UHGV virus genome: UHGV-0248791
Reading direction: 5' to 3' (one strand)
DNA from: a virus
Length of the DNA: 15,864 nucleotides
The position numbers and the translations under genes are program-made. The notes beneath the pieces are model-generated. The model was not told where the DNA came from. It saw only the letters and a program-made list of their open reading frames with translations, and did not search any database. Each line of letters opens with the position of its first letter. Within the stretch, counting starts at the first letter, position 1. Below are positions 1 through 11,287 of this stretch, one piece after another.

Positions 1-6
1 AGATAA

Positions 7-83
7 TGGACCGCCATCGAGGACTCGAACCCCGCGCAACCAGCTTCGAAGGCTGGCGCTCTATCCTGATGAGCTAATGGCGG
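7..83 (-). tRNA. tRNA-Arg (anticodon UCG), phage-borne
   Basis: Reverse complement of 7..83 folds as a 77-nt cloverleaf: acceptor CCGCCAT/ATGGCGG, D-arm GCTC-ATCAGGATA-GAGC, anticodon arm CCAGC-CTTCGAA-GCTGG (anticodon UCG), T-arm CGGGG-TTCGAGT-CCTCG, discriminator T, encoded CCA. Confidence 0.75.
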
Positions 84-90
84 TATGTGA

Positions 91-162
91 TGGTGGCCCT
101 TGCTGGATTTGAACCAGCGACCTGGCGATTATGAGTCGCTCTCACCACTGAGCTAAAGGGCC
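91..162 (-). tRNA. tRNA with CAU anticodon (Ile2/Met type, ileZ-like), with a shortened D-arm
   Basis: Reverse complement of 91..162: acceptor GGCCCTT/AAGGGCC, T-arm GCTGG-TTCAAAT-CCAGC, anticodon loop CTCATAA (CAU), discriminator A, encoded CCA. Only 72 nt because the D-arm is short (3-bp stem, 6-nt loop) and 27:43 is an A-C mismatch, so it may be a degenerate copy. Confidence 0.6.
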
Positions 163-171
163 GGGAGCCGC

Positions 172-200
172 ATAATAACGACGCGTAATTAATTCTTCAA
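172..200 (-). promoter_or_regulatory. Candidate sigma70 promoter for the tRNA cluster
   Basis: On the minus strand: -35 TTGAAG (200..195), 17-nt spacer, -10 TATTAT (177..172), then 9 nt to the 5' end of the CAU tRNA at 162. Confidence 0.45.
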
Positions 201-202
201 TA

Positions 203-313
203 TCATCCGTTCTGGCTGACTAAATCCTGTACTTCCCGAACCGTCTGCTCAAAACATTCAGTCTCCAGCTCAACGCCAATTGCACGACGCCCGAGCGCCA
301 GTGCTGCTTTGAC
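203..313 (-). pseudogene. Possible 3' remnant of a DNA methyltransferase gene (C-terminal ~35 codons, no start codon)
   Basis: Minus-strand frame translates ...KAALALGRRAIGVELETECFEQTVREVQDLVSQNG*, resembling the C-terminal A-x-x-L-G-R-x-x-I-G-x-E motif of N6/N4 DNA methyltransferases. The frame is open upstream without any ATG and runs through a terminator hairpin, consistent with a truncated gene. Confidence 0.25.
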
Positions 314-324
314 GCTACGGACAT

Positions 325-353
325 AAAAAAGCCAGCCACTGGGGGAGGCTGGC
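325..353 (-). terminator. Rho-independent terminator (minus strand)
   Basis: GCCAGCC (331-337) pairs with GGCTGGC (347-353) around a 9-nt loop; on the minus strand the hairpin is followed by six U (A-run 325-330 on plus). Confidence 0.5.
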
Positions 354-536
354 GAAACTCGTAGAGCAAAAGTGTTGTTACACTAACTTCGTCACAGGGT
401 TATCCTGCAATACTCAAAATACACAATATTTACAAAACTAATAGTATACAAGGCGATCTTTAAGATTTTGTTATAAATTATTGCCTTTCTCCTCTTTCCA
501 TGAGCTTTCTGGGTAGCCACAGAATTCCGGGTACAG

Positions 537-562
537 AAAAACCCGCTCAGCGGCGGGTTTAA
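537..562 (-). terminator. GC-rich hairpin, weak terminator candidate
   Basis: AAACCCGC/GCGGGTTT stem (539-546 with 553-560), 6-nt loop. The U-tract on the minus strand is only 4 nt, so function is uncertain. Confidence 0.25.
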
Positions 563-737
563 GCTGTGTGACGAAGTAACCACTCTTAACAGCATAACCA
601 ATTTTTTACGTACGTAAACCACTAAATGATATTTGCGAGAATGCTACCGAGTATTGAAAACACCACTACAAATACATAAGCAAATCTCAACAAATAACCA
701 ACAAATAATTTCCAGTGTTATTTTTAGCCGGTTTAAA

Positions 738-768
738 TTGAACCTTCAAATTATAGAGCACTTATAAA
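738..768 (+). promoter_or_regulatory. Candidate promoter in the AT-rich region upstream of the porin gene
   Basis: TTGAAC (738-743), 17-18 nt spacer, TTATAA/TATAAA (762-768). Several alternative hexamers exist in this AT-rich stretch, so the assignment is tentative. Confidence 0.25.
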
Positions 769-987
769 TAACAGCCGTTAATATAAATTGGCTAATAGAT
801 TTATTTTTATTCAGCCAAGAGCCATGAATAGGATTCGATAGAAAAAAGTTCAGATAAAAATAGAGATCTACTTCACAAATCAAACGAGAAACCAAAACTT
901 ACATCTTGAAATAATCACATTGATTAGATGAATATTTATCGCGCAGTGACATCATTTTTTAATAATAGTTCAAAAAAAGGGCTCACG

Positions 988-2070
988 ATGAAAAAATTAA
1001 CAGTGGCAATTTCTGCTGTAGCTGCATCAGTACTGATGGCGATGTCTGCTCAGGCAGCTGAAATTTATAATAAAGACAGTAACAAGCTGGATCTGTACGG
1101 GAAAGTTAATGCTAAGCACTATTTCTCCTCTAATGATGCAGATGATGGTGATACTACTTATGCCCGTCTTGGCTTCAAAGGTGAAACCCAAATCAACGAT
1201 CAACTGACTGGTTTCGGTCAGTGGGAATATGAATTCAAAGGCAACCGCGCTGAATCTCAAGGTTCCTCCAAAGATAAAACCCGTCTTGCCTTCGCTGGCC
1301 TGAAATTCGGTGACTACGGCTCAATCGATTACGGCCGTAACTACGGTGTAGCATACGACATCGGTGCGTGGACTGACGTTCTGCCAGAATTCGGTGGCGA
1401 TACCTGGACCCAAACAGATGTGTTCATGACTGGTCGCACCACTGGTGTTGCAACTTATCGTAACAACGACTTCTTTGGTCTGGTTGATGGTCTGAACTTT
1501 GCTGCTCAGTATCAGGGTAAAAATGACCGCACTGACGTAACTGAAGCTAATGGTGATGGTTTCGGTTTCTCCACTACTTATGAGTATGAAGGATTCGGTG
1601 TAGGTGCAACCTATGCTAAATCTGACCGCACTAATAATCAGGTTATCTACGGTAACAACAGCCTGAATGCATCTGGTCAAAATGCTGAAGTATGGGCAGC
1701 TGGTCTGAAATATGATGCGAACAACATCTATCTGGCTACCACCTATTCTGAAACCCAGAACATGACTGTTTTTGGTAATAACCATATTGCCAACAAAGCA
1801 CAAAACTTCGAAGTAGTTGCACAATATCAGTTCGACTTCGGTCTGCGTCCGTCCGTTGCTTACCTGCAATCTAAAGGAAAAGACTTGGGTGCGTGGGGTG
1901 ATCAGGACCTGGTTGAATATATTGATGTAGGTGCAACCTATTACTTCAACAAAAATATGTCCACTTTTGTTGATTACAAAATCAACCTGATTGATAAGAG
2001 CGATTTCACGAAAGCATCTGGCGTTGCTACCGATGATATCGTTGCTGTAGGTATGGTTTACCAGTTCTAA
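988..2070 (+). CDS. nmpC: General porin of the OmpC/OmpF/PhoE family (NmpC-type prophage porin), intact
   Basis: Start at ATG 988 ([23 protein letters not shown] signal peptide, then mature N-terminus AEIYNKD typical of enterobacterial porins) with AAAGGG Shine-Dalgarno upstream. Aromatic C-terminal ...VGMVYQF. The ORF-track start at 928 adds 20 codons ahead of the signal peptide and is unlikely. Confidence 0.9.
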
Positions 2071-2074
2071 TTTG

Positions 2075-2119
2075 ATTACTAAAAGATATGTTGCGGGAGG
2101 CTTTGCCTCCCCAACATAT
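2075..2119 (-). terminator. Long hairpin with minus-strand U-tract downstream of Q (tR'-like candidate)
   Basis: ATATGTTG-c-GGGAGGC TTT GCCTCCC-CAACATAT gives a 15-bp stem with one bulge (2086-2119); on the minus strand it is followed by CUUUUAGUAAU. Confidence 0.4.
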
Positions 2120-2206
2120 AAGTGGCTCCCTCAAGCCACTTCCTTTAGGAGCACAACCTTGCTTCTAACTATATAAACCTTCTGTTATATATTACCCTTT
2201 ATTTTT

Positions 2207-2231
2207 GGGAGCGTTGCAACGCCCCATTTTT
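2207..2231 (+). terminator. Candidate rho-independent terminator for the porin gene
   Basis: GGGAGCGT...ACGCCCC hairpin (2207-2225) followed by ATTTTT on the plus strand, 137 bp after the porin stop. Confidence 0.45.
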
Positions 2232-2258
2232 AATAATTTTTAGTAAACAATTGGCATA

Positions 2259-2642
2259 TTAATTAGAGTTATTAACAACGATATCCATCTCTAACCGGAT
2301 ATCTAATGCCATTAACATCCCTTCAATTATGCCCTCAGCCTTCTGTAACCTTTTCCCGATATAACCATCAGAGCAGCAATGCTTACCTGCCAGTGACATG
2401 AATGTCATACCGACTACATAATAATCTACTAATAAATCGTGCAAATCGCTGTTGTTCTTTTTCAGACGGGCCATGCACCCGCAAATAATCATCGCGTCAT
2501 CGTCACAACATTGCGGGCGAGATTTTACTTTTGAAGTAATTAATCCCTTAAAACCGGCGGCAATGGACGACCAGGTCACATCTTCATGATTATTAGCCGC
2601 CCACGCTCCCCAGCGTTCGAGAACCATCTGAATATCACGCAT
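2259..2642 (-). CDS. Late-gene antiterminator Q (phage 21/DLP12 QuuD-like)
   Basis: 127-aa product [22 protein letters not shown]... with Cys-rich zinc-binding segment ([13 protein letters not shown]...HCCSDG). Start taken at ATG 2642 with GGAGA Shine-Dalgarno; the track's longer ORF begins at a TTG. Confidence 0.8.
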
Positions 2643-2659
2643 CAACTTTCTCCACAAAA

Positions 2660-3655
2660 TCAGGACAGCACACCAATCGCCAGCGCGCGATCGATAAAAC
2701 GAAATATCAGCTCCAGTTGGGAACCATACTTCTCTTCAAATGCCACGGTATCCGCATGTAGTTCGTCATGGTGTTTTCTGCACAAAGGCAACACAAAAAG
2801 GTCATGCGCTTTTGTACCCATTCCACCCTGACCATGACCAATCAGGTGATGAGGATCGTCGGCTGGCTTACCACAACATGCACACGGCTGCGTCTTAACC
2901 CAGCGCGTGTACTTTTCATTAACCCAGCGACGACGTTTGGGGCGTAACATAAAAGACTCCGGCGACTCCGGATCCACTTTCAGCGCCAGCACCTTTTTCG
3001 CCTTATCCCGGATGATGCTGGTGGCAGGAACCGAAGGCACAAGGTCACCTTCCCGGGTGACAGACGGCACAACAGGCTTCGGTAATCTCAGTGCCTTACG
3101 GGCTGCACTTTCCGGTAAGGCATCCGCCAGGTCATTACGAACCAGCCACCAGCACAGTTCCGGCATTGTCACAACGTGGCTGTCATCAAAACCGAGATCA
3201 CGACGGACTACGGACAACACCCAGCGGGCACAGTTATCCGTTGCCATTGATTCCAGACGTTCCGTGAACTGATCGCGAAGCAGGTTATCGCAGTGCCAGC
3301 ACAGACGGATTGCGCCCGGCGCGTGTCGCATTGTGGTCATGTTCTCGCTGTGCCATCCGGAATGAGGCCACTGGCAGCCTTTTTCACGAAGTAACCAGCT
3401 CTCAAGGCATTCCACGCCACCAGCACGACGGATCACCGCCTCATGGCGGAACACGGCCCGAACGGCAGGATCATCCGCCAGCGGTTGTGATGCTGCCGGA
3501 ACGGCACCACTGGCAAAAGATGAATAACGTTCCGGCTCAGGCTCCAGCAGGACACGCCCCTGCATAAACAGGGGCATCAGCTCTGAACCGGGTCTGAACA
3601 AGACGATCCCCATACGCGGGGCAATTTCAGGGGTCAGCAGTGCTCTCACGGTCAC
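2660..3655 (-). CDS. DUF968/NinG-like nin-region protein with C-terminal Cys/His (HNH-like, zinc-binding) motif
   Basis: C-terminal QPCACCGKP...[19 protein letters not shown]...[12 protein letters not shown]. The start is uncertain: GTG at 3655 or GTG at 3649, the latter with a GAGG Shine-Dalgarno 5 nt upstream. Confidence 0.6.
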
Positions 3656-7772: not shown

Positions 7773-7963
7773 GGACGCACCTCCGCCGTAGTTACGTATT
7801 TAACCGGGCTACCTTTCATTGAGATGGTTTCACACATCTCTGCCGCTTTCAGTTCCGCTGTTTTTCTGGATTTATAGCGACGGTGCCAGACAGATACATC
7901 CGTGCGAACTGATACATCGTTTCTGTATTCCGTAGTGGAGATGATGATTTCGTAACTAATCAT
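7769..7963 (-). CDS. Hypothetical protein (64 aa)
   Basis: ATG 7963 with GGAGG Shine-Dalgarno 7 nt upstream; ATGA overlap with the stop of the Rha-family gene. Confidence 0.5.
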   Translation of the reverse strand: MISYEIIISTTEYRNDVSVRTDVSVWHRRYKSRKTAELKAAEMCETISMKGSPVKYVTTAEVRP

Positions 7964-8820
7964 GGGCGAACCTCCTTGTCAGAACCATTCAGCCTGGAAT
8001 CAACAAGTGCAGCGCCAAAAACAGCATCACCAACACGGTCGTACAGTTTGCTAGCCAGCGGAGATTCAACGGCCTTAAGCATTGGATAAAGCTGGCTTGT
8101 CCAGATTTGATGGATTTCACGCAAATGCAGGTATACGCCTCTGGCGTTTCGTGCGACAGCTGACATATCAGACGCATCGGCACCTGATAAACTCTTCTCC
8201 ATCAGGTTAAAGGCGTTGATGTATGCCTCTTTGAACCGGGCAGCACGTTTACCAGTGAAGCCCATGGCAAGAAACGCAAAACCGTCGCGGGTGATTTGGT
8301 AACAAGGGAGCTTGCGTGTACCACCGTTCGGTTGATTTACCGAAATCGATGTCTCCGCAAAATTGCGGGCACAAAACTCAGGGGAACAATCCAGAGTGCG
8401 GATCTTTTTCAGCACATCGTCATGACGCTTGGAGAAGAAGTTGGCAACAGCCAAAGAAGTGGTAACGGCCTGGCCGTTGTCAATGGTGATTTCAGGTTGA
8501 GTGAGGGCTGGGATCGTAGCCATGATGGCAGCCTCCGTTGACAGTGAAAAACTTCCACCACCGGAAACGCCAATTTCACTGGTGGTGAACTGGACGGGGT
8601 TGGCGTAACCGGCGTCAACGGAGACCGGCGCACCTTTCGGTGCCCCCGCCCAGCCCACCATAATCTGGATGTGAGCAAATGCGGACGATAAAAAAGACGC
8701 TGGCGCGTCATACATCGCCGTTGACAATTTCAGGACGCCAATCCCGGCACCCGCTTTATAAGGTGCGGAGACAGTGTAACGTCCCGGAATTGCAGAATCA
8801 ATATGCTGGTGGCGGATCAT
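7960..8820 (-). CDS. Rha-family phage regulatory protein (paralog A); alternative internal start at 8523 would give a 187-aa product
   Basis: Rha-like motifs AVTTSLAVANFFSKRHDDVLKKIRTL...ITRDGFAFLAMGFTGKRAARFKEAYINAFNLME. Two nested starts: ATG 8820 (GGGAGG Shine-Dalgarno, ATGA coupling to the upstream gene) and ATG 8523 (GGAGG Shine-Dalgarno), the latter sitting right at the start of the Rha domain. Confidence 0.6.
   Translation of the reverse strand: MIRHQHIDSAIPGRYTVSAPYKAGAGIGVLKLSTAMYDAPASFLSSAFAHIQIMVGWAGAPKGAPVSVDAGYANPVQFTTSEIGVSGGGSFSLSTEAAIMATIPALTQPEITIDNGQAVTTSLAVANFFSKRHDDVLKKIRTLDCSPEFCARNFAETSISVNQPNGGTRKLPCYQITRDGFAFLAMGFTGKRAARFKEAYINAFNLMEKSLSGADASDMSAVARNARGVYLHLREIHQIWTSQLYPMLKAVESPLASKLYDRVGDAVFGAALVDSRLNGSDKEVRP
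8524..8820 (-). promoter_or_regulatory. Conserved structured leader, copy A (candidate cis-regulatory RNA; may also be translated as an N-terminal extension)
   Basis: Transcript sense: site 1 GTCAACGG (8725..8718), terminator-like GACGC-GCCA-GCGTC plus U6 (8709..8690), hairpin GCACC-GAAA-GGTGC (8643..8630), site 2 CUCCGUUGAC (8623..8614), pseudoknot-type helices ACGCCAA/TTGGCGT interleaved with CACCACC/GGTGGTG (8606..8556), site 3 GUCAACGGAG overlapping the Shine-Dalgarno (8542..8533). Confidence 0.4.
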
Positions 8821-9479
8821 AGGTGCACCTCCCGTTGATTACGACGGAACGCGGAGTGACCCTGGACGGTTTCAGCCTCATGGAATGCTTCAATACAGCT
8901 CTCGTAGTACCGCATTGTGCGCAGACTTAACCCAAGCTGAAGCATCATCAGACCATCAAGGGTGATGTAATAACCACGCAGGGAGTCACCGTAGATGTGA
9001 TAAGTACCCGGTATGAAATTGCGGGTAAAAAACCCGCGTGAGCAGTTCAGATACTCGATTTTGTCAACGATGTTCTGGTGCATGCGCTTGAAATGGCAGG
9101 CAACATGCAGGGAGAAAATAACGGCCTTGCCGTTGACGACTTCGATTTTTAGGAATGGGGAAGTTAGGACAGTAGCCATGATGGCAGCCTCCGTATGCAA
9201 TGGATAACTTCCACCACCGGAGCTGCGAAACTCATGGGTGGTGAACTGAACAGGGTTCGCAGTACCGGCGCATACGGAAACCGGCGAGCCTTTCGGCTCC
9301 CCTGCCCAGCCCACCATAATTCTGGCGTGCGTGAGCGCGGACGATAAAAAAGACGCTGGCGCGTCATATATCGCCGTATGCAATTCCGGGCTGCGACCCC
9401 CGGCACCCGCTTTATAAGGTGCGGAGACAGTGTAACGTCCCGAAATTGCAGAATCAATATTTGGTCTTGAAATGATCAT
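8817..9479 (-). CDS. Rha-family phage regulatory protein (diverged paralog B); alternative internal start at 9179 would give a 120-aa product
   Basis: Degenerate Rha-like region AVIFSLHVACHFKRMHQNIVDKI...ITLDGLMML. ATG 9479 lacks a clear Shine-Dalgarno, whereas internal ATG 9179 has GGAGG 8 nt upstream within a 20-nt block identical to copy A. Confidence 0.5.
   Translation of the reverse strand: MIISRPNIDSAISGRYTVSAPYKAGAGGRSPELHTAIYDAPASFLSSALTHARIMVGWAGEPKGSPVSVCAGTANPVQFTTHEFRSSGGGSYPLHTEAAIMATVLTSPFLKIEVVNGKAVIFSLHVACHFKRMHQNIVDKIEYLNCSRGFFTRNFIPGTYHIYGDSLRGYYITLDGLMMLQLGLSLRTMRYYESCIEAFHEAETVQGHSAFRRNQREVHL
9180..9479 (-). promoter_or_regulatory. Conserved structured leader, copy B (same architecture as copy A with compensatory changes)
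   Basis: Site 1 GCATACGG (9381..9374), identical GACGC-GCCA-GCGTC plus U6, hairpin GAGCC-GAAA-GGCTC (9299..9286), site 2 UUCCGUAUGC (9279..9270), helices CTGCGAA/TTCGCAG interleaved with CACCACC/GGTGGTG, site 3 GCAUACGGAG overlapping the Shine-Dalgarno (9198..9189). Confidence 0.4.
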
Positions 9480-9563
9480 ATAGCTGCTGATATCTTTAGA
9501 ACTGTTCTTGGATGTTTCGGAGCCGTTTTATGCGAAACAGCTCCCCGTTATTGATGTTGAGTG

Positions 9564-9588
9564 AGCCGGGTTACTCCCGGCTTTTTTT
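9564..9588 (+). terminator. Strong rho-independent terminator on the plus strand, antisense to the early-right operon
   Basis: AGCCGGG-TTACT-CCCGGCT 7-bp GC-rich stem (9564-9582) followed by a T-run to 9588. On the minus strand the hairpin is not followed by U, so it is unidirectional for plus-strand transcripts. Confidence 0.55.
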
Positions 9589-10295
9589 CACCGCTGCCAA
9601 CCAATAACCTGAAATAACCCCATTTTCGGGTGATACCAGCGAGTCCCTCGCGGTTCTGCTTCCTCCATAATCCGATAAAAAGCAGCCATAAACGGTTCCA
9701 CAGCAACAATTGCGCGACGTGACAACAATCCGTCCGGCGTCATGAACTCATGGGTGTCTGTAGGAATCTGATAGGCGTTCACCAGATTGCGGCATTTATC
9801 ATCTGACAAACCGGTTTTTGCTTTCAGTTGGCGATATCCGGCATAGCCCTCACGAATAGTGCCCTTTTTAATTTGCTCGACTGTTTCAGCAACGTGGCTG
9901 ACTTTTTCTTCCACCTGAGTGATCCGTTTCTGTTGGCGAACGGCTTCAAGAGCCATCGCGGCAACCATTTCGATTTCGCTCATTGGCTTACGGATCTGTT
10001 CTTCCAGTTCGCGCCAGCGATCTACCAGGCGAGCTGTGAATTCAGGACAGAGCTGTGCGACGACAATGATGCTGTCGCGCTTACCTCGTTCACCTTCGAA
10101 TACATACGCGCTAGAAAATCGGCGAGGCCCAAGTGATTGTTTATTCTCAATTTCCACAGTCTGTGGAAATTGGATGATTCCCTTTTTAGCCAGTGTTTCA
10201 ATAGTTCTCTTAACACTATCTGGTCGGCTTCCCACCAGCTCTGCGATCTCAACGCTGGTCATGGATGCTTTGCCGTTAAAAATTGCGGTGTTCAT
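9588..10295 (-). CDS. Rha/antirepressor-family phage regulatory protein (235 aa)
   Basis: N-terminal MTSVEIAELVGSRPDSVKRTIETLAKKGII...GERGKRDSIIVVAQLCPEFTARLVDRW resembles Rha-family regulators. ATG 10295 has an AGGAGA Shine-Dalgarno 6 nt upstream. Confidence 0.7.
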   Translation of the reverse strand: MNTAIFNGKASMTSVEIAELVGSRPDSVKRTIETLAKKGIIQFPQTVEIENKQSLGPRRFSSAYVFEGERGKRDSIIVVAQLCPEFTARLVDRWRELEEQIRKPMSEIEMVAAMALEAVRQQKRITQVEEKVSHVAETVEQIKKGTIREGYAGYRQLKAKTGLSDDKCRNLVNAYQIPTDTHEFMTPDGLLSRRAIVAVEPFMAAFYRIMEEAEPRGTRWYHPKMGLFQVIGWQR

Positions 10296-10536: not shown

Positions 10537-10608
10537 GATACTTTGTTATCCAACGATGTTAACCATAGGAACCCAAAGTATCAAGAAATTCTGTTACTTT
10601 AGTATCAA
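10537..10608. promoter_or_regulatory. OR-type operator cluster with divergent PRM/PR promoters between cI and the early-right operon
   Basis: Three copies of an AAGTATC core: GATACTTTG (10537-10545, inverted), AAAGTATCAA (10575-10584), TTAGTATCAA (10599-10608). On the minus strand the motif reads TTGATAC, which overlaps a -35-like hexamer (TTGATA, 17 nt, TAACAT). Confidence 0.5.
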
Positions 10609-10630
10609 CAGCCATGAGAGGAGAAGAAAA

Positions 10631-11287
10631 ATGAAGTCTTTAGGTGAACGTCTCATCAACGCACGGCAAAAAGCTGGGTTAACACAAGATGCGTTGGCTA
10701 AAAAAGCTGGGGTCACCAGAGTTGCAATAAGTAAAGCCGAGCAAGGCCTTACAAAAAGTTTCAACGGTGACACCCTTTTTAAAGTTGCAGCTGCACTGCG
10801 GTGTTCACCGCAGTGGCTTCAGAACGGAGATGAAAAAGATAAGCATTGGGAAAATAATGTTAAGAGCTGCCCACAGAGAGACACAGCACACTCTTACCCT
10901 GTAATTAACTGGGTTCAGGCAGGATTATTCGCAACTTCTGGTGATGACTACAACATGTATGATCAGGATAATTGGAGGCATTCTGTAAAATACGCTGGTG
11001 AGAGGGGGTTCTGGCTGGAAGTGCACGGAGACTCAATGACTTCGCCCGTAGGAATAACATTTCCTGAAGGAATGTCGATCCTTGTCAACCCAGATAAAGA
11101 AGTTTTTTCAGGGTGTTACGTCATCGCCAGAAAAAAATCCACCAATGAAGCAACATTCAAAAAATATATTTCTGACATGGGAAAGGCGTTTCTAAAGCCC
11201 CTTAATCCACAATATCCAATCATAGAAATGGACAATGATTGCGAAATAGTAGGTGTTGTGGTTGATGCCAGATGGGATATTTTCTGA
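10631..11287 (+). CDS. CI-type prophage repressor (N-terminal HTH, C-terminal LexA-like S24 peptidase domain)
   Basis: HTH LTQDALAKKAGVTRVAISKAEQG; S24 motifs GDSMTSP (Ser) and a downstream Lys; candidate Ala-Gly cleavage site in WVQAGLF. Start ATG 10631 with AGAGGAGAAG Shine-Dalgarno; the track's longer ORF lacks one. Confidence 0.85.
   Translation: MKSLGERLINARQKAGLTQDALAKKAGVTRVAISKAEQGLTKSFNGDTLFKVAAALRCSPQWLQNGDEKDKHWENNVKSCPQRDTAHSYPVINWVQAGLFATSGDDYNMYDQDNWRHSVKYAGERGFWLEVHGDSMTSPVGITFPEGMSILVNPDKEVFSGCYVIARKKSTNEATFKKYISDMGKAFLKPLNPQYPIIEMDNDCEIVGVVVDARWDIF

What the first reader, a model, noticed from the sequence alone, without database searches (positions are those of the whole stretch)
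620..2258. Intact porin moron inserted convergently between Q and the late region, bracketed by terminators
An OmpC/OmpF-family porin with its own ~370-bp AT-rich upstream region is transcribed opposite to Q. Its 3' end abuts a long hairpin that would terminate minus-strand (Q-side) transcripts, and a separate plus-strand terminator follows the porin. In E. coli K-12 the equivalent DLP12 nmpC is inactivated by IS5; here the ORF is uninterrupted, so the prophage may alter outer-membrane permeability or phage-receptor properties of the lysogen. The pR'/qut site must lie in the ~190 bp between the Q stop and the hairpin, but I could not define it with confidence.
Basis: partly seen in the sequence, partly recalled or inferred. 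Interest (0 to 1): 0.35.

Follow-up and report, generated by a model that had tools for sequence, protein, structure and literature searches.

The report
Known prophage porin cassette (Lc/NmpC type)

Summary
An uninterrupted 360-aa OmpC/OmpF-family porin (988-2070, +) converges on a Q antiterminator gene (2259-2642, -). It has a 28-29% G+C upstream region and a highly structured 3' spacer. It is not new. The protein is 100% identical to the porin of phage PhiR34_1 and 91% to PA-2 Lc. The segment 620-2258 occurs in 2,469 of 5,426 complete E. coli genomes, and its 3' UTR is 96% identical to the K-12 nmpC-quuD spacer, where the IpeX RNA is reported to lie.

Q belongs to the Q21/Q933W family (identical to K-12 QuuD), not the Q82 type. 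Window 1-619 is homologous to the whole post-Q region of Shiga-toxin phages, where the late promoter start and terminator have been mapped. By that homology pR' lies left of the porin: -35 at 618-613, -10 at 596-591, start at A584. A hairpin follows at 560-537 and tR' at 353-325.

The porin cassette (about 620-2282) is therefore an insert between Q codon 120 and pR', and late transcription runs away from it. Among 100 related loci the same slot holds the porin (34), other mostly convergent cargo including candidate defence genes (43), or nothing (23).

The parts
620..2282 (.). Porin cassette: the block present here and absent from Shiga-toxin phages with a related Q. It also supplies the last 7 codons and the stop of Q.
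   Evidence: Homology with Stx phage PA28 covers window 1-619 and 2310-2644 only. Homology with PhiR40_1 and 1H12 stops at 2283. Q proteins diverge after LEMD, residue 120.
620..987 (+). AT-rich control region and 5' leader of the porin. The promoter is not located. A -35-like TTGAAA lies at 906-911, and 848-987 is nearly invariant among 36 sequence variants.
   Evidence: 28.5-29.5% G+C; alignment of 36 variants; no consensus promoter flagged.
860..880 (+). CRP-like site, identical to the one annotated in the PA-2 lc record.
   Evidence: PA-2 feature 1363-1383 maps here with 0 mismatches.
988..2070 (+). Porin CDS, 360 aa (signal peptide 988-1056, mature protein from AEIYNK), Lc/NmpC type.
   Evidence: 100% identical to the PhiR34_1 and E. 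coli B1-56 porins, 91% to PA-2 Lc.
2071..2241 (+). Porin 3' UTR, homologous to the K-12 nmpC-quuD spacer where the IpeX RNA is reported. Five hairpins: 2086-2119, 2120-2141, 2145-2168, 2170-2191, 2206-2226.
   Evidence: Fold z=-8.3; 96.3% identical to K-12; 95-99% conserved in 21 variants; IpeX given as 167 nt and part of the porin transcript (PMC12197685).
2206..2241 (+). Plus-strand intrinsic terminator of the porin transcript: stem-loop 2206-2226, then U5-AAUAA-U5. In this window the stem carries a G-to-A change that most relatives lack.
2086..2119 (.). Long hairpin next to the porin stop codon. On the minus strand it is followed by CUUUUAG (a weak terminator for read-through from Q). On the plus strand it is the first hairpin of the 3' UTR.
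2259..2642 (-). Antiterminator Q, Q21/Q933W family, identical to K-12 QuuD.
   Evidence: PF06530; 127/127 identical to QuuD; 77-81% to Stx-phage Q; distant match to the solved Q21 structure.
584..618 (-). Late promoter pR', assigned by homology: -35 TTTACG at 618-613 (preceded by the relic stop codon of a Q933W-type ORF at 608-606), -10 TATGCT at 596-591, start at A584.
   Evidence: Alignment with Sakai Sp5 and PA28; published start site mapped onto the Sakai sequence; the block is unique in the window.
537..560 (-). First terminator-like hairpin of the late leader (+25 to +48): AAACCCGC...GCGGGUUUUU. It is the only hairpin of this kind seen between pR' and the holin gene in PhiR34_1, and the K-12 DLP12 leader reads the same.
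325..353 (-). Shiga-toxin-phage-type tR': stem 353-347/337-331, U-run 330-325. The pR' transcript 584-325 (260 nt) is the homologue of StxS.
   Evidence: In Sakai the published 3' end falls on the last U of the same hairpin.
203..316 (-). DNA methyltransferase remnant, as found in Stx phages.
   Evidence: RefSeq annotation of the 99.5% identical E. coli B1-56 region.
7..162 (-). Two phage tRNA genes: CAT anticodon at 91-162 and Arg-TCG at 7-83. A promoter-like site lies at 200-172.

Best explanation
Window 620-2282 is a self-contained lysogenic-conversion cassette of the Lc/NmpC kind, carried by an E. coli lambdoid prophage. It holds an AT-rich control region with a CRP-like site, an intact general-diffusion porin gene, and a ~165-170-nt structured 3' UTR ending in its own terminator. 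That UTR is the homologue of the IpeX RNA region.

Shown here: the cassette is inserted in the opposite orientation between codon 120 of the Q antiterminator gene and the -35 box of the late promoter pR'. It therefore lies outside the late operon. pR' (start at A584) fires leftward, away from the porin, through a leader with two terminators (560-537 and 353-325), then into the tRNA genes. By comparison with the identical E. coli B1-56 prophage, a sialate-esterase gene and the lysis genes follow beyond the window.

Inferred from the literature on PA-2 and DLP12 (largely from memory): in the lysogen the porin is made from its own promoter and inserted in the outer membrane. The 3' UTR lowers OmpC and OmpF synthesis. 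The cell's porin set is thus exchanged, which changes permeability and removes OmpC as a receptor for other phages.
For: Porin identity and integrity.

Known kind: PA-2 lc is 91.5% identical over the whole segment and carries the same annotated signal peptide and CRP sites. The segment is in 2,469 of 5,426 complete E. coli genomes and 36 phage records. The K-12 copy is the IS5-disrupted nmpC.

3' UTR: strongly structured, with a plus-strand terminator. It is 96% identical to K-12 and 95-99% conserved, with changes mostly in hairpin loops. [quoted passage not shown]

Position of pR': window 1-619 matches the full post-Q region of Stx phage PA28 at 87%. The multiple alignment shows the conserved block. 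The published Sakai start site and 3' end fall 7 nt after a TATCAT -10 and on the last U of the terminator, and the same elements are present in the window. Q tails diverge after residue 120. In 100 loci with this block and an upstream Q, the gap is 39-72 nt (23 loci), porin-sized at 1669-1688 nt (34), or holds other cargo (43).
Against: - No expression data exist for this strain. An intact nmpC has been called 'quiescent' in E. coli B (title cited).
- The porin promoter was not located, and the consensus scan found none.
- The pR' assignment rests on homology to a mapped promoter of a Q that is 77-81% identical. The Q-binding element and the sigma-dependent pause element could not be recognised. 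The -10-like TACATT of Stx phages reads TACTTC here.
- The IpeX boundaries and mechanism come from secondary sources and memory. The primary paper was not available, and Rfam has no IpeX family.
- The sequences are too similar for a covariation test of the UTR structure.
Confidence: 0.85

Rival explanations
1. One reading: pR' and the Q-loading site lie in 2071-2258, directly after Q. The long hairpin at 2119-2086 is tR', and Q-modified polymerase transcribes the porin antisense on its way to the lysis genes.
For: This is the position of pR' in lambda and in Stx phages (directly after Q). The spacer is highly structured on the minus strand (z=-5.1). It contains AT-rich -10-like hexamers such as TAATAT and TATAGT, and a 15-bp hairpin followed by CUUUU.
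Against: - The spacer is absent from relatives with 77-85% identical Q proteins, while the block at 619-536 is present in all of them.
- That block is homologous to an experimentally mapped pR'.
- No second copy of the block exists in the window.
- No consensus promoter was found on the minus strand of the spacer.
- The best -35/-10 pair there (TTGCAA / TAATAT) has a 19-nt spacer.
- The spacer travels with the porin as one unit in all 34 porin loci.
Confidence: 0.06
2. The gene is intact but silent. The 28% G+C upstream region keeps it repressed (for example by H-NS) under ordinary conditions, so the prophage does not change the outer membrane of the lysogen in practice. This concerns activity, not identity, and does not exclude the main explanation.
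For: Very AT-rich control region. No consensus promoter detected. An intact nmpC in E. coli B is described as quiescent in the literature (title).
Against: - The coding sequence and 3' UTR are conserved without disruption across many phages and genomes.
- Amino-acid changes cluster in three patches that correspond to indel positions in solved porins, as expected for an exposed, selected protein.
- PA-2 Lc is expressed in lysogens (own knowledge of the literature).
Confidence: 0.3
3. The structured spacer 2071-2258 is mainly a two-way transcriptional insulator between the convergent Q and porin genes, not a regulatory RNA. This is not exclusive of the main explanation.
For: Hairpins with U-runs are present on both strands. 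Convergent genes need termination between them.
Against: - Five consecutive hairpins are more than termination requires.
- The plus strand folds better than the minus strand (z=-8.3 against -5.1).
- The literature assigns a trans-acting function, repression of OmpC and OmpF, to this region.
Confidence: 0.2

Closest known systems
Lc porin (gene lc) of lambdoid phage PA-2, GenBank J02580
   Same: Same gene, orientation and neighbours. 91.5% DNA identity over 620-2258 and 91% protein identity. Identical signal peptide and identical annotated CRP sites. Same 3' spacer leading into the end of Q.
   Different: The protein is 5 residues shorter. Substitutions and indels are concentrated in three patches (residues ~181-196, 215-232, 263-268). 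Left of the pR' block, PA-2 continues to the holin gene, whereas this prophage continues into a Shiga-toxin-phage-type leader and tRNA genes.
nmpC / IpeX / quuD locus of the K-12 cryptic prophage DLP12
   Same: Q is 127/127 identical. The 3' spacer is 96% identical, the upstream region and pR' block about 92%. The gene order Q - porin (opposite strand) - pR' block is the same.
   Different: K-12 nmpC is split by IS5B after nt 1040; here the ORF is whole. In DLP12 the pR' block is followed by essD after about 170 nt; here it is followed by an StxS-type leader, tR' and tRNAs.
Late control region of Shiga-toxin phages (Q933W, pR', StxS, tR', ileZ-argN-argO)
   Same: Window 1-619 is 87% identical to this region of phage PA28 and Sakai Sp5. 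That includes the promoter hexamers, the start site, both hairpins, the methylase remnant and the tRNAs. Q is 77-81% identical.
   Different: In Stx phages the Q ORF runs into the -35 box, so there is no insert. Here 1.66 kb of porin cassette separates them, and Q has a different 7-residue tail. By comparison with the 99.5% identical E. coli B1-56 prophage, no stx genes follow the tRNAs beyond the left end of the window.
Chromosomal general porins OmpC, OmpF, PhoE, OmpN/OmpK37 and Salmonella OmpD
   Same: Same family and fold by sequence (E 1e-116 to 1e-137 against solved structures), with the PEFGG constriction-loop motif and the C-terminal Phe.
   Different: This porin is phage-borne, lies in a 28% G+C context and has its own 3' UTR regulator. 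Databases label it variously 'OmpC' or 'OmpD'. Orthology with Salmonella OmpD was not tested.

Membership tests
General bacterial porin family (Pfam Porin_1: OmpC/OmpF/PhoE) | Full-length match to the family profile | tested here: met
   PF00267, E=3.1e-153, profile positions 1-337 of 337; all 337 mature residues align with solved porins.
General bacterial porin family (Pfam Porin_1: OmpC/OmpF/PhoE) | Cleavable N-terminal signal peptide, loop-3 PEFGG motif and C-terminal aromatic residue | tested here: met
   [23 protein letters not shown]|AEIYNK matches the PA-2 annotated signal peptide. VLPEFGGD and the terminal YQF are present.
General bacterial porin family (Pfam Porin_1: OmpC/OmpF/PhoE) | 16-stranded beta-barrel trimer with channel activity | not tested
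   No structure prediction was run; the sequence similarity to solved trimers was judged sufficient. Channel activity needs experiment.
Lc/NmpC lysogenic-conversion porin of lambdoid phages | Close sequence relationship to PA-2 Lc / K-12 NmpC | tested here: met
   91% protein identity to Lc and 100% to the PhiR34_1 porin; 91.8% DNA identity to the K-12 nmpC fragment.
Lc/NmpC lysogenic-conversion porin of lambdoid phages | Located after Q, on the opposite strand, upstream of the lysis genes | tested here: met
Lc/NmpC lysogenic-conversion porin of lambdoid phages | Carries the conserved 3' UTR (IpeX region) | tested here: met
   96.3% identical to the K-12 spacer; present in all 34 porin loci examined.
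Lc/NmpC lysogenic-conversion porin of lambdoid phages | Expressed in the lysogen and lowers OmpC | not testable with these tools
   Needs outer-membrane protein profiles of the lysogen.
Q21/Q933W-family antitermination module | Q protein of Pfam PF06530 | tested here: met
   E=3.5e-53; weak but significant match to the solved Q21 structure, E=7.6e-7.
Q21/Q933W-family antitermination module | pR' directly downstream of the Q stop codon | tested here: not met
   The promoter homologue lies 1.64 kb from the Q stop, separated from it by the porin cassette.
Q21/Q933W-family antitermination module | Promoter homologous to a mapped pR', followed by intrinsic terminator(s) | tested here: met
   hairpins with U-runs at 560-537 and 353-325.
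Q21/Q933W-family antitermination module | Recognisable Q-binding element and sigma-dependent pause element | tested here: inconclusive
   The initial transcribed region is conserved (AGTGGTTAC...). However, the -10-like hexamer TACATT of Stx phages reads TACTTC here, and no direct repeat like that of Q21 could be assigned (Q21 description).
Moron (independent transcription unit inserted between genes that are adjacent in related phages) | Absent from related phages, with sharp boundaries | tested here: met
   Boundaries at about 620 and 2282. 23 of 100 related loci have an empty slot.
Moron (independent transcription unit inserted between genes that are adjacent in related phages) | Own terminator and own promoter | tested here: inconclusive
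   A terminator-like hairpin with a U-run lies at 2206-2241. No promoter was located; there is only a conserved region with a CRP-like site.

The most novel reading that the evidence does not exclude
The porin/IpeX cassette is one allele of a cargo hotspot that, as far as my one literature search shows, has not been systematically described. The slot lies between codon 120 of Q21/Q933W-family Q genes and the -35 box of pR'. It accepts many alternative units, nearly always convergent with Q. These include candidate anti-phage systems (KAP-NTPase PDC-S20, PDC-S42, a Kiwa-like KwaB plus membrane protein), several unannotated two-gene sets, a lipoprotein and an esterase. In that light the porin cassette would be a receptor-exchange form of superinfection defence, and the unannotated neighbours would be a source of new defence genes.
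Probability: 0.4. Interest if true: 0.45.

Novelty: already known. Interest (0 to 1): 0.15.

Why it matters
For the porin itself the value is mainly correct annotation. RefSeq calls it 'porin OmpC' and phage records call it 'OmpD', but it is the phage Lc/NmpC porin with the IpeX-type 3' UTR. It may change permeability and phage-receptor display in the lysogen.

The useful correction is the position of pR'. Late transcription should not be expected to run antisense through the porin.

The wider point is that the gap between Q and pR' in this Q family is a recurrent cargo slot, and it may be worth mining for defence genes.

Tried and rejected
- Phage-82-type pR'. I first assumed Q was 82-like and looked for the 82 pR' features (a -10-like element at +9 to +14, GCC at +15-17, a pause at +25) in 2071-2258. 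I rejected this when Pfam and PDB placed Q in the Q21/Q933W family.
- Rfam. A permissive search of 1-3000 found only the two tRNAs and chance-level hits. There is no IpeX or StxS family.
- Consensus promoter and terminator scan. It flagged none of the elements discussed here, including the pR' homologue (8 of 12 hexamer matches). It therefore neither supports nor refutes them. It did flag a promoter-like site at 200-172, upstream of the tRNAs.
- Primary papers. Castillo-Keller 2006, Perdue and Roberts 2010 and Prilipov 1998 were not held, and the supplement with the 82 pR' sequence was not held either.
- Covariation test of the 3' UTR hairpins. Abandoned because the 21 variants are 95-99% identical, with changes mostly in loops.
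- RefSeq K-12 record. It does not annotate ipeX, so the IpeX boundaries could not be transferred directly.
- PADLOC and Pfam on slot cargo. Only 2 of 10 proteins matched PADLOC and 3 of 10 matched Pfam. 'Defence hotspot' is therefore only partly supported.
- ORFs 392-622 (-) and 220-369 (-). No family hits. They overlap the late leader and the methylase remnant, and I regard them as spurious.
Full report
**1. What is in the sequence**

The window is the early-right and late-control part of an E. coli lambdoid prophage, with the phage's rightward direction on the minus strand.
- From right to left it encodes a CI-type repressor (10556-11287, +), Ash/Rha-type regulators, a DnaC-like loader and a DnaB-type helicase.
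- These are followed by a DUF968 protein (2660-3655) and an antiterminator Q (2259-2642, Pfam PF06530, E=3.5e-53).
- On the plus strand, converging on Q, lies an uninterrupted porin gene.

The mechanical ORF runs 928-2070, but the true start is ATG 988 (360 aa), for three reasons:
- it is preceded by AAGGG;
- it gives the signal peptide [23 protein letters not shown]|AEIYNK, the one annotated for PA-2 Lc;
- a 1-nt length polymorphism in the A-run at 972-979 among relatives breaks the frame of the upstream ATG.

Evidence that the porin is complete:
- Pfam Porin_1 matches end to end (E=3.1e-153).
- All 337 mature residues align with solved OmpK37, OmpC, OmpK36, PhoE and OmpF structures (E 1e-116 to 1e-137).
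- The loop-3 PEFGG motif and the terminal YQF are present.

**2. It is the known Lc/NmpC prophage porin**

- Segment 620-2258 is found at 80% coverage or more in 2,469 of 5,426 complete E. coli genomes, and in 36 phage records.
- The protein is 100% identical to that of the viable phage PhiR34_1 and of E. coli B1-56, and 91% identical to Lc of phage PA-2 (GenBank J02580).
- Differences from Lc fall in three patches (about residues 181-196, 215-232 and 263-268), which coincide with indel positions against solved porins.
- Q is 127/127 identical to K-12 QuuD.
- The K-12 homologue nmpC is split by IS5B after nt 1040, and joining the fragments restores a normal C-terminus.
- Both CRP sites annotated in the PA-2 record are conserved without mismatch, at 564-584 and 860-880.

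**3. The 188-nt spacer between the two stop codons**

The spacer is far more structured than shuffled controls on both strands (plus z=-8.3, minus z=-5.1).

On the plus strand it forms five hairpins:
- 2086-2119
- 2120-2141
- 2145-2168
- 2170-2191
- 2206-2226

The last is followed by AUUUUUAAUAAUUUUU, a terminator that would give a 3' UTR of about 161-171 nt.

The spacer is 96.3% identical to the K-12 nmpC-quuD spacer. Across 21 sequence variants it is 95-99% conserved, with changes mostly in hairpin loops.

The literature places the IpeX RNA here. [quoted passage not shown] Other papers list IpeX as a repressor of ompC, and of ompC and ompF (PMC3333887; PMC5069750). From memory, the primary paper is Castillo-Keller et al. 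2006, which localised ipeX to the untranslated region after nmpC and noted the same sequence after PA-2 lc. I could not obtain it, and Rfam has no family for it.

On the minus strand the long hairpin is followed only by CUUUUAG. It could stop read-through from Q, but it is a weak terminator.

**4. Where the late promoter really is**

The evidence points elsewhere.

*Q family.* Q belongs to the Q21/Q933W family (PF06530). It is 77-81% identical to the Q proteins of Shiga-toxin phages.

*Homology to the Stx-phage post-Q region.* Pairwise comparison shows that window 1-619 matches the entire post-Q region of Stx2 phage PA28 at 87%. The match starts 13 nt before the Q933W-type stop codon, whose relic TAA survives at window 608-606. 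It runs through the leader, a methylase remnant and the tRNA genes. The Q gene itself matches at 2310-2644. Relative to Stx phages, everything between (about 620-2282) is an insert.

*The mapped promoter.* In strain Sakai the pR' start and the 3' end of the 258-nt pR' transcript (StxS) were mapped by dRNA-seq and Term-seq (PMC7547250). I transferred the published coordinates to the current record with an offset of +142. The start then falls on an A 7 nt after a TATCAT -10, 22 nt past the Q stop. The 3' end falls on the last U of a GC-rich hairpin. These two coincidences validate the offset.

*The homologous elements in the window, on the minus strand:*

| Element | Window position |
|---|---|
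| -35 TTTACG | 618-613 |
| -10 TATGCT | 596-591 |
| Start (A) | 584 |
| First terminator-like hairpin | 560-537 (+25 to +48) |
| Stx-type tR' stem | 353-331 |
| tR' U-run | 330-325 |
| Resulting leader | 260 nt |

*Conservation of the block.* The ~85-bp block at 619-536 is shared by PA-2, DLP12, PhiR34_1, PhiR40_1, PA28 and Sakai, although their flanks differ. It occurs once in the window.

*Consistent literature.* Published work reports that the DLP12 lysis operon is controlled by the phage Q-type antiterminator and has its regulatory region just upstream of essD (PMC7918800).

*Consequence.* pR' and the porin gene are back to back and divergent. Late transcription does not cross the porin.

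*Not resolved.* I could not identify the Q-binding element or the pause element. The -10-like TACATT of Stx phages reads TACTTC here.

**5. Boundaries and the nature of the slot**

Q proteins of the window, Sakai, PhiR40_1 and 1H12 are collinear up to LEMD (residue 120) and then diverge. Their tails are 7, 24, 1 and 5 residues long. The right edge of the cassette is therefore window 2282/2283, and the left edge is about 620.

I scanned viral contigs for the pR' block and obtained 120 loci. In 100 of them a PF06530 Q was detectable upstream on the same strand.

| Slot content | Loci | Gap from Q to block | Q identity to the window |
|---|---|---|---|
| Empty | 23 | 39-72 nt | 44-82% |
| Porin | 34 | 1669-1688 nt | 95-100% |
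| Other cargo | 43 | 626-2477 nt | 45-85% |

The other cargo is nearly always on the opposite strand. It includes:
- a KAP-NTPase matching PADLOC PDC-S20 (E=6e-171);
- a PDC-S42 protein;
- a KwaB-like protein next to a membrane protein;
- an NA37 nucleoid-associated protein;
- an esterase;
- a lipoprotein;
- several two-gene sets with no family match.

Phage 1H12 has a lipocalin gene after Q but lacks the block.

The porin cassette is therefore one allele of a recurrent cargo slot. Calling that slot a defence hotspot is only partly supported.

**6. This particular mosaic**

In PA-2, DLP12 and PhiR34_1 the pR' block is followed, after the first hairpin, by the holin gene. Here it is followed by the Stx-type leader, tR', a methylase remnant and tRNAs. 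In the 99.5% identical B1-56 prophage the next genes are a third tRNA, a SASA-family esterase and the lysis genes, with no stx.

The join lies inside the shared block. None of the 34 porin loci sampled has the Stx-type tR'. Only 3 of 5,426 complete genomes span the junction. This is a rare recombinant of two common modules, not a new kind of element.

**7. Verdict**

The identity, intactness, orientation and K-12 contrast are right. The location of pR'/qut is not, and 'bracketed by terminators' holds only loosely.
- The feature is already known: Lc and NmpC from the 1980s, IpeX from 2006.
- Whether this copy is expressed cannot be told from sequence. An intact nmpC in E. coli B has been called quiescent (title cited).
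- Interest is low. The only lead of some wider value is the Q-to-pR' cargo slot.

Noticed in passing
window 325-584 (minus strand): A homologue of the Shiga-toxin-phage late leader RNA StxS. It is a 260-nt pR'-to-tR' transcript, about 81% identical overall to Sakai StxS and nearly identical over the last ~85 nt, including the GUAUU RNase E site context. It sits in a prophage that by comparison with E. coli B1-56 carries no stx genes.
   Followed up: partly
window 537-560 and 325-353 (minus strand): There are two terminator-like hairpins in series in the late leader. The first (+25 to +48) is shared by all phages with this pR' block and is the only one seen before the holin in PhiR34_1. In Stx phages the mapped 3' end is at the second hairpin, so the first must be read through at least in part without Q.
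   Followed up: partly
L009-L128 (viral contigs); window 620-2282 as one allele: The interval between Q codon 120 and the pR' -35 box is a recurrent cargo slot. Of 100 loci, 23 are empty, 34 hold the porin and 43 hold other cargo, mostly convergent. The other cargo includes PADLOC PDC-S20 and PDC-S42 proteins, a KwaB-like protein with a membrane partner, and several unannotated two-gene sets.
   Followed up: partly
window 564-584: The first 'CRP site' annotated in the 1986 PA-2 record coincides with positions +1 to +21 of the late transcript (AGTGGTTACTTCGTCACACAG). This is the most conserved part of the pR' block. It may instead be part of the Q-loading or pause region.
   Followed up: no
window 330-760: The junction between the DLP12/PA-2-type porin cassette and the Stx-phage-type leader lies inside the shared pR' block. 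It is present in only 3 of 5,426 complete E. coli genomes (B1-56, O111:H21 strain 15A, and one unnamed human isolate).
   Followed up: yes
window 7-162 and 172-200 (minus strand): Two phage tRNA genes. ARAGORN calls the CAT-anticodon gene Met, while RefSeq annotates the equivalent as tRNA-Ile (ileZ type). The other is Arg-TCG. A sigma-70-like site (TTGAAG-17-TATTAT) lies just upstream, matching the tRNA promoter reported between tR' and stx in Sakai.
   Followed up: partly
window 203-316 (minus strand): A remnant of a DNA methyltransferase gene lacking its N-terminus, as in Stx phages. The mechanical ORFs 392-622 and 220-369 on this strand have no family matches and overlap the leader and this remnant.
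   Followed up: partly
window 2206-2226: The stem of the porin terminator carries a G-to-A change (GGGAGCG) that creates an A-C mismatch. Most of the 21 variants have a perfect GGGGGCG stem.
   Followed up: no
window 7960-10295 (minus strand): Three consecutive genes encode proteins with Rha domains, and the first two also have Ash domains (286, 220 and 235 aa). They look like tandem paralogues in the early-right operon.
   Followed up: no
window 2660-3655 (minus strand): A DUF968 protein with a weak HNH-nuclease signature lies directly upstream of Q. In DLP12 and PhiR34_1 that position holds rusA and ylcG.
   Followed up: no
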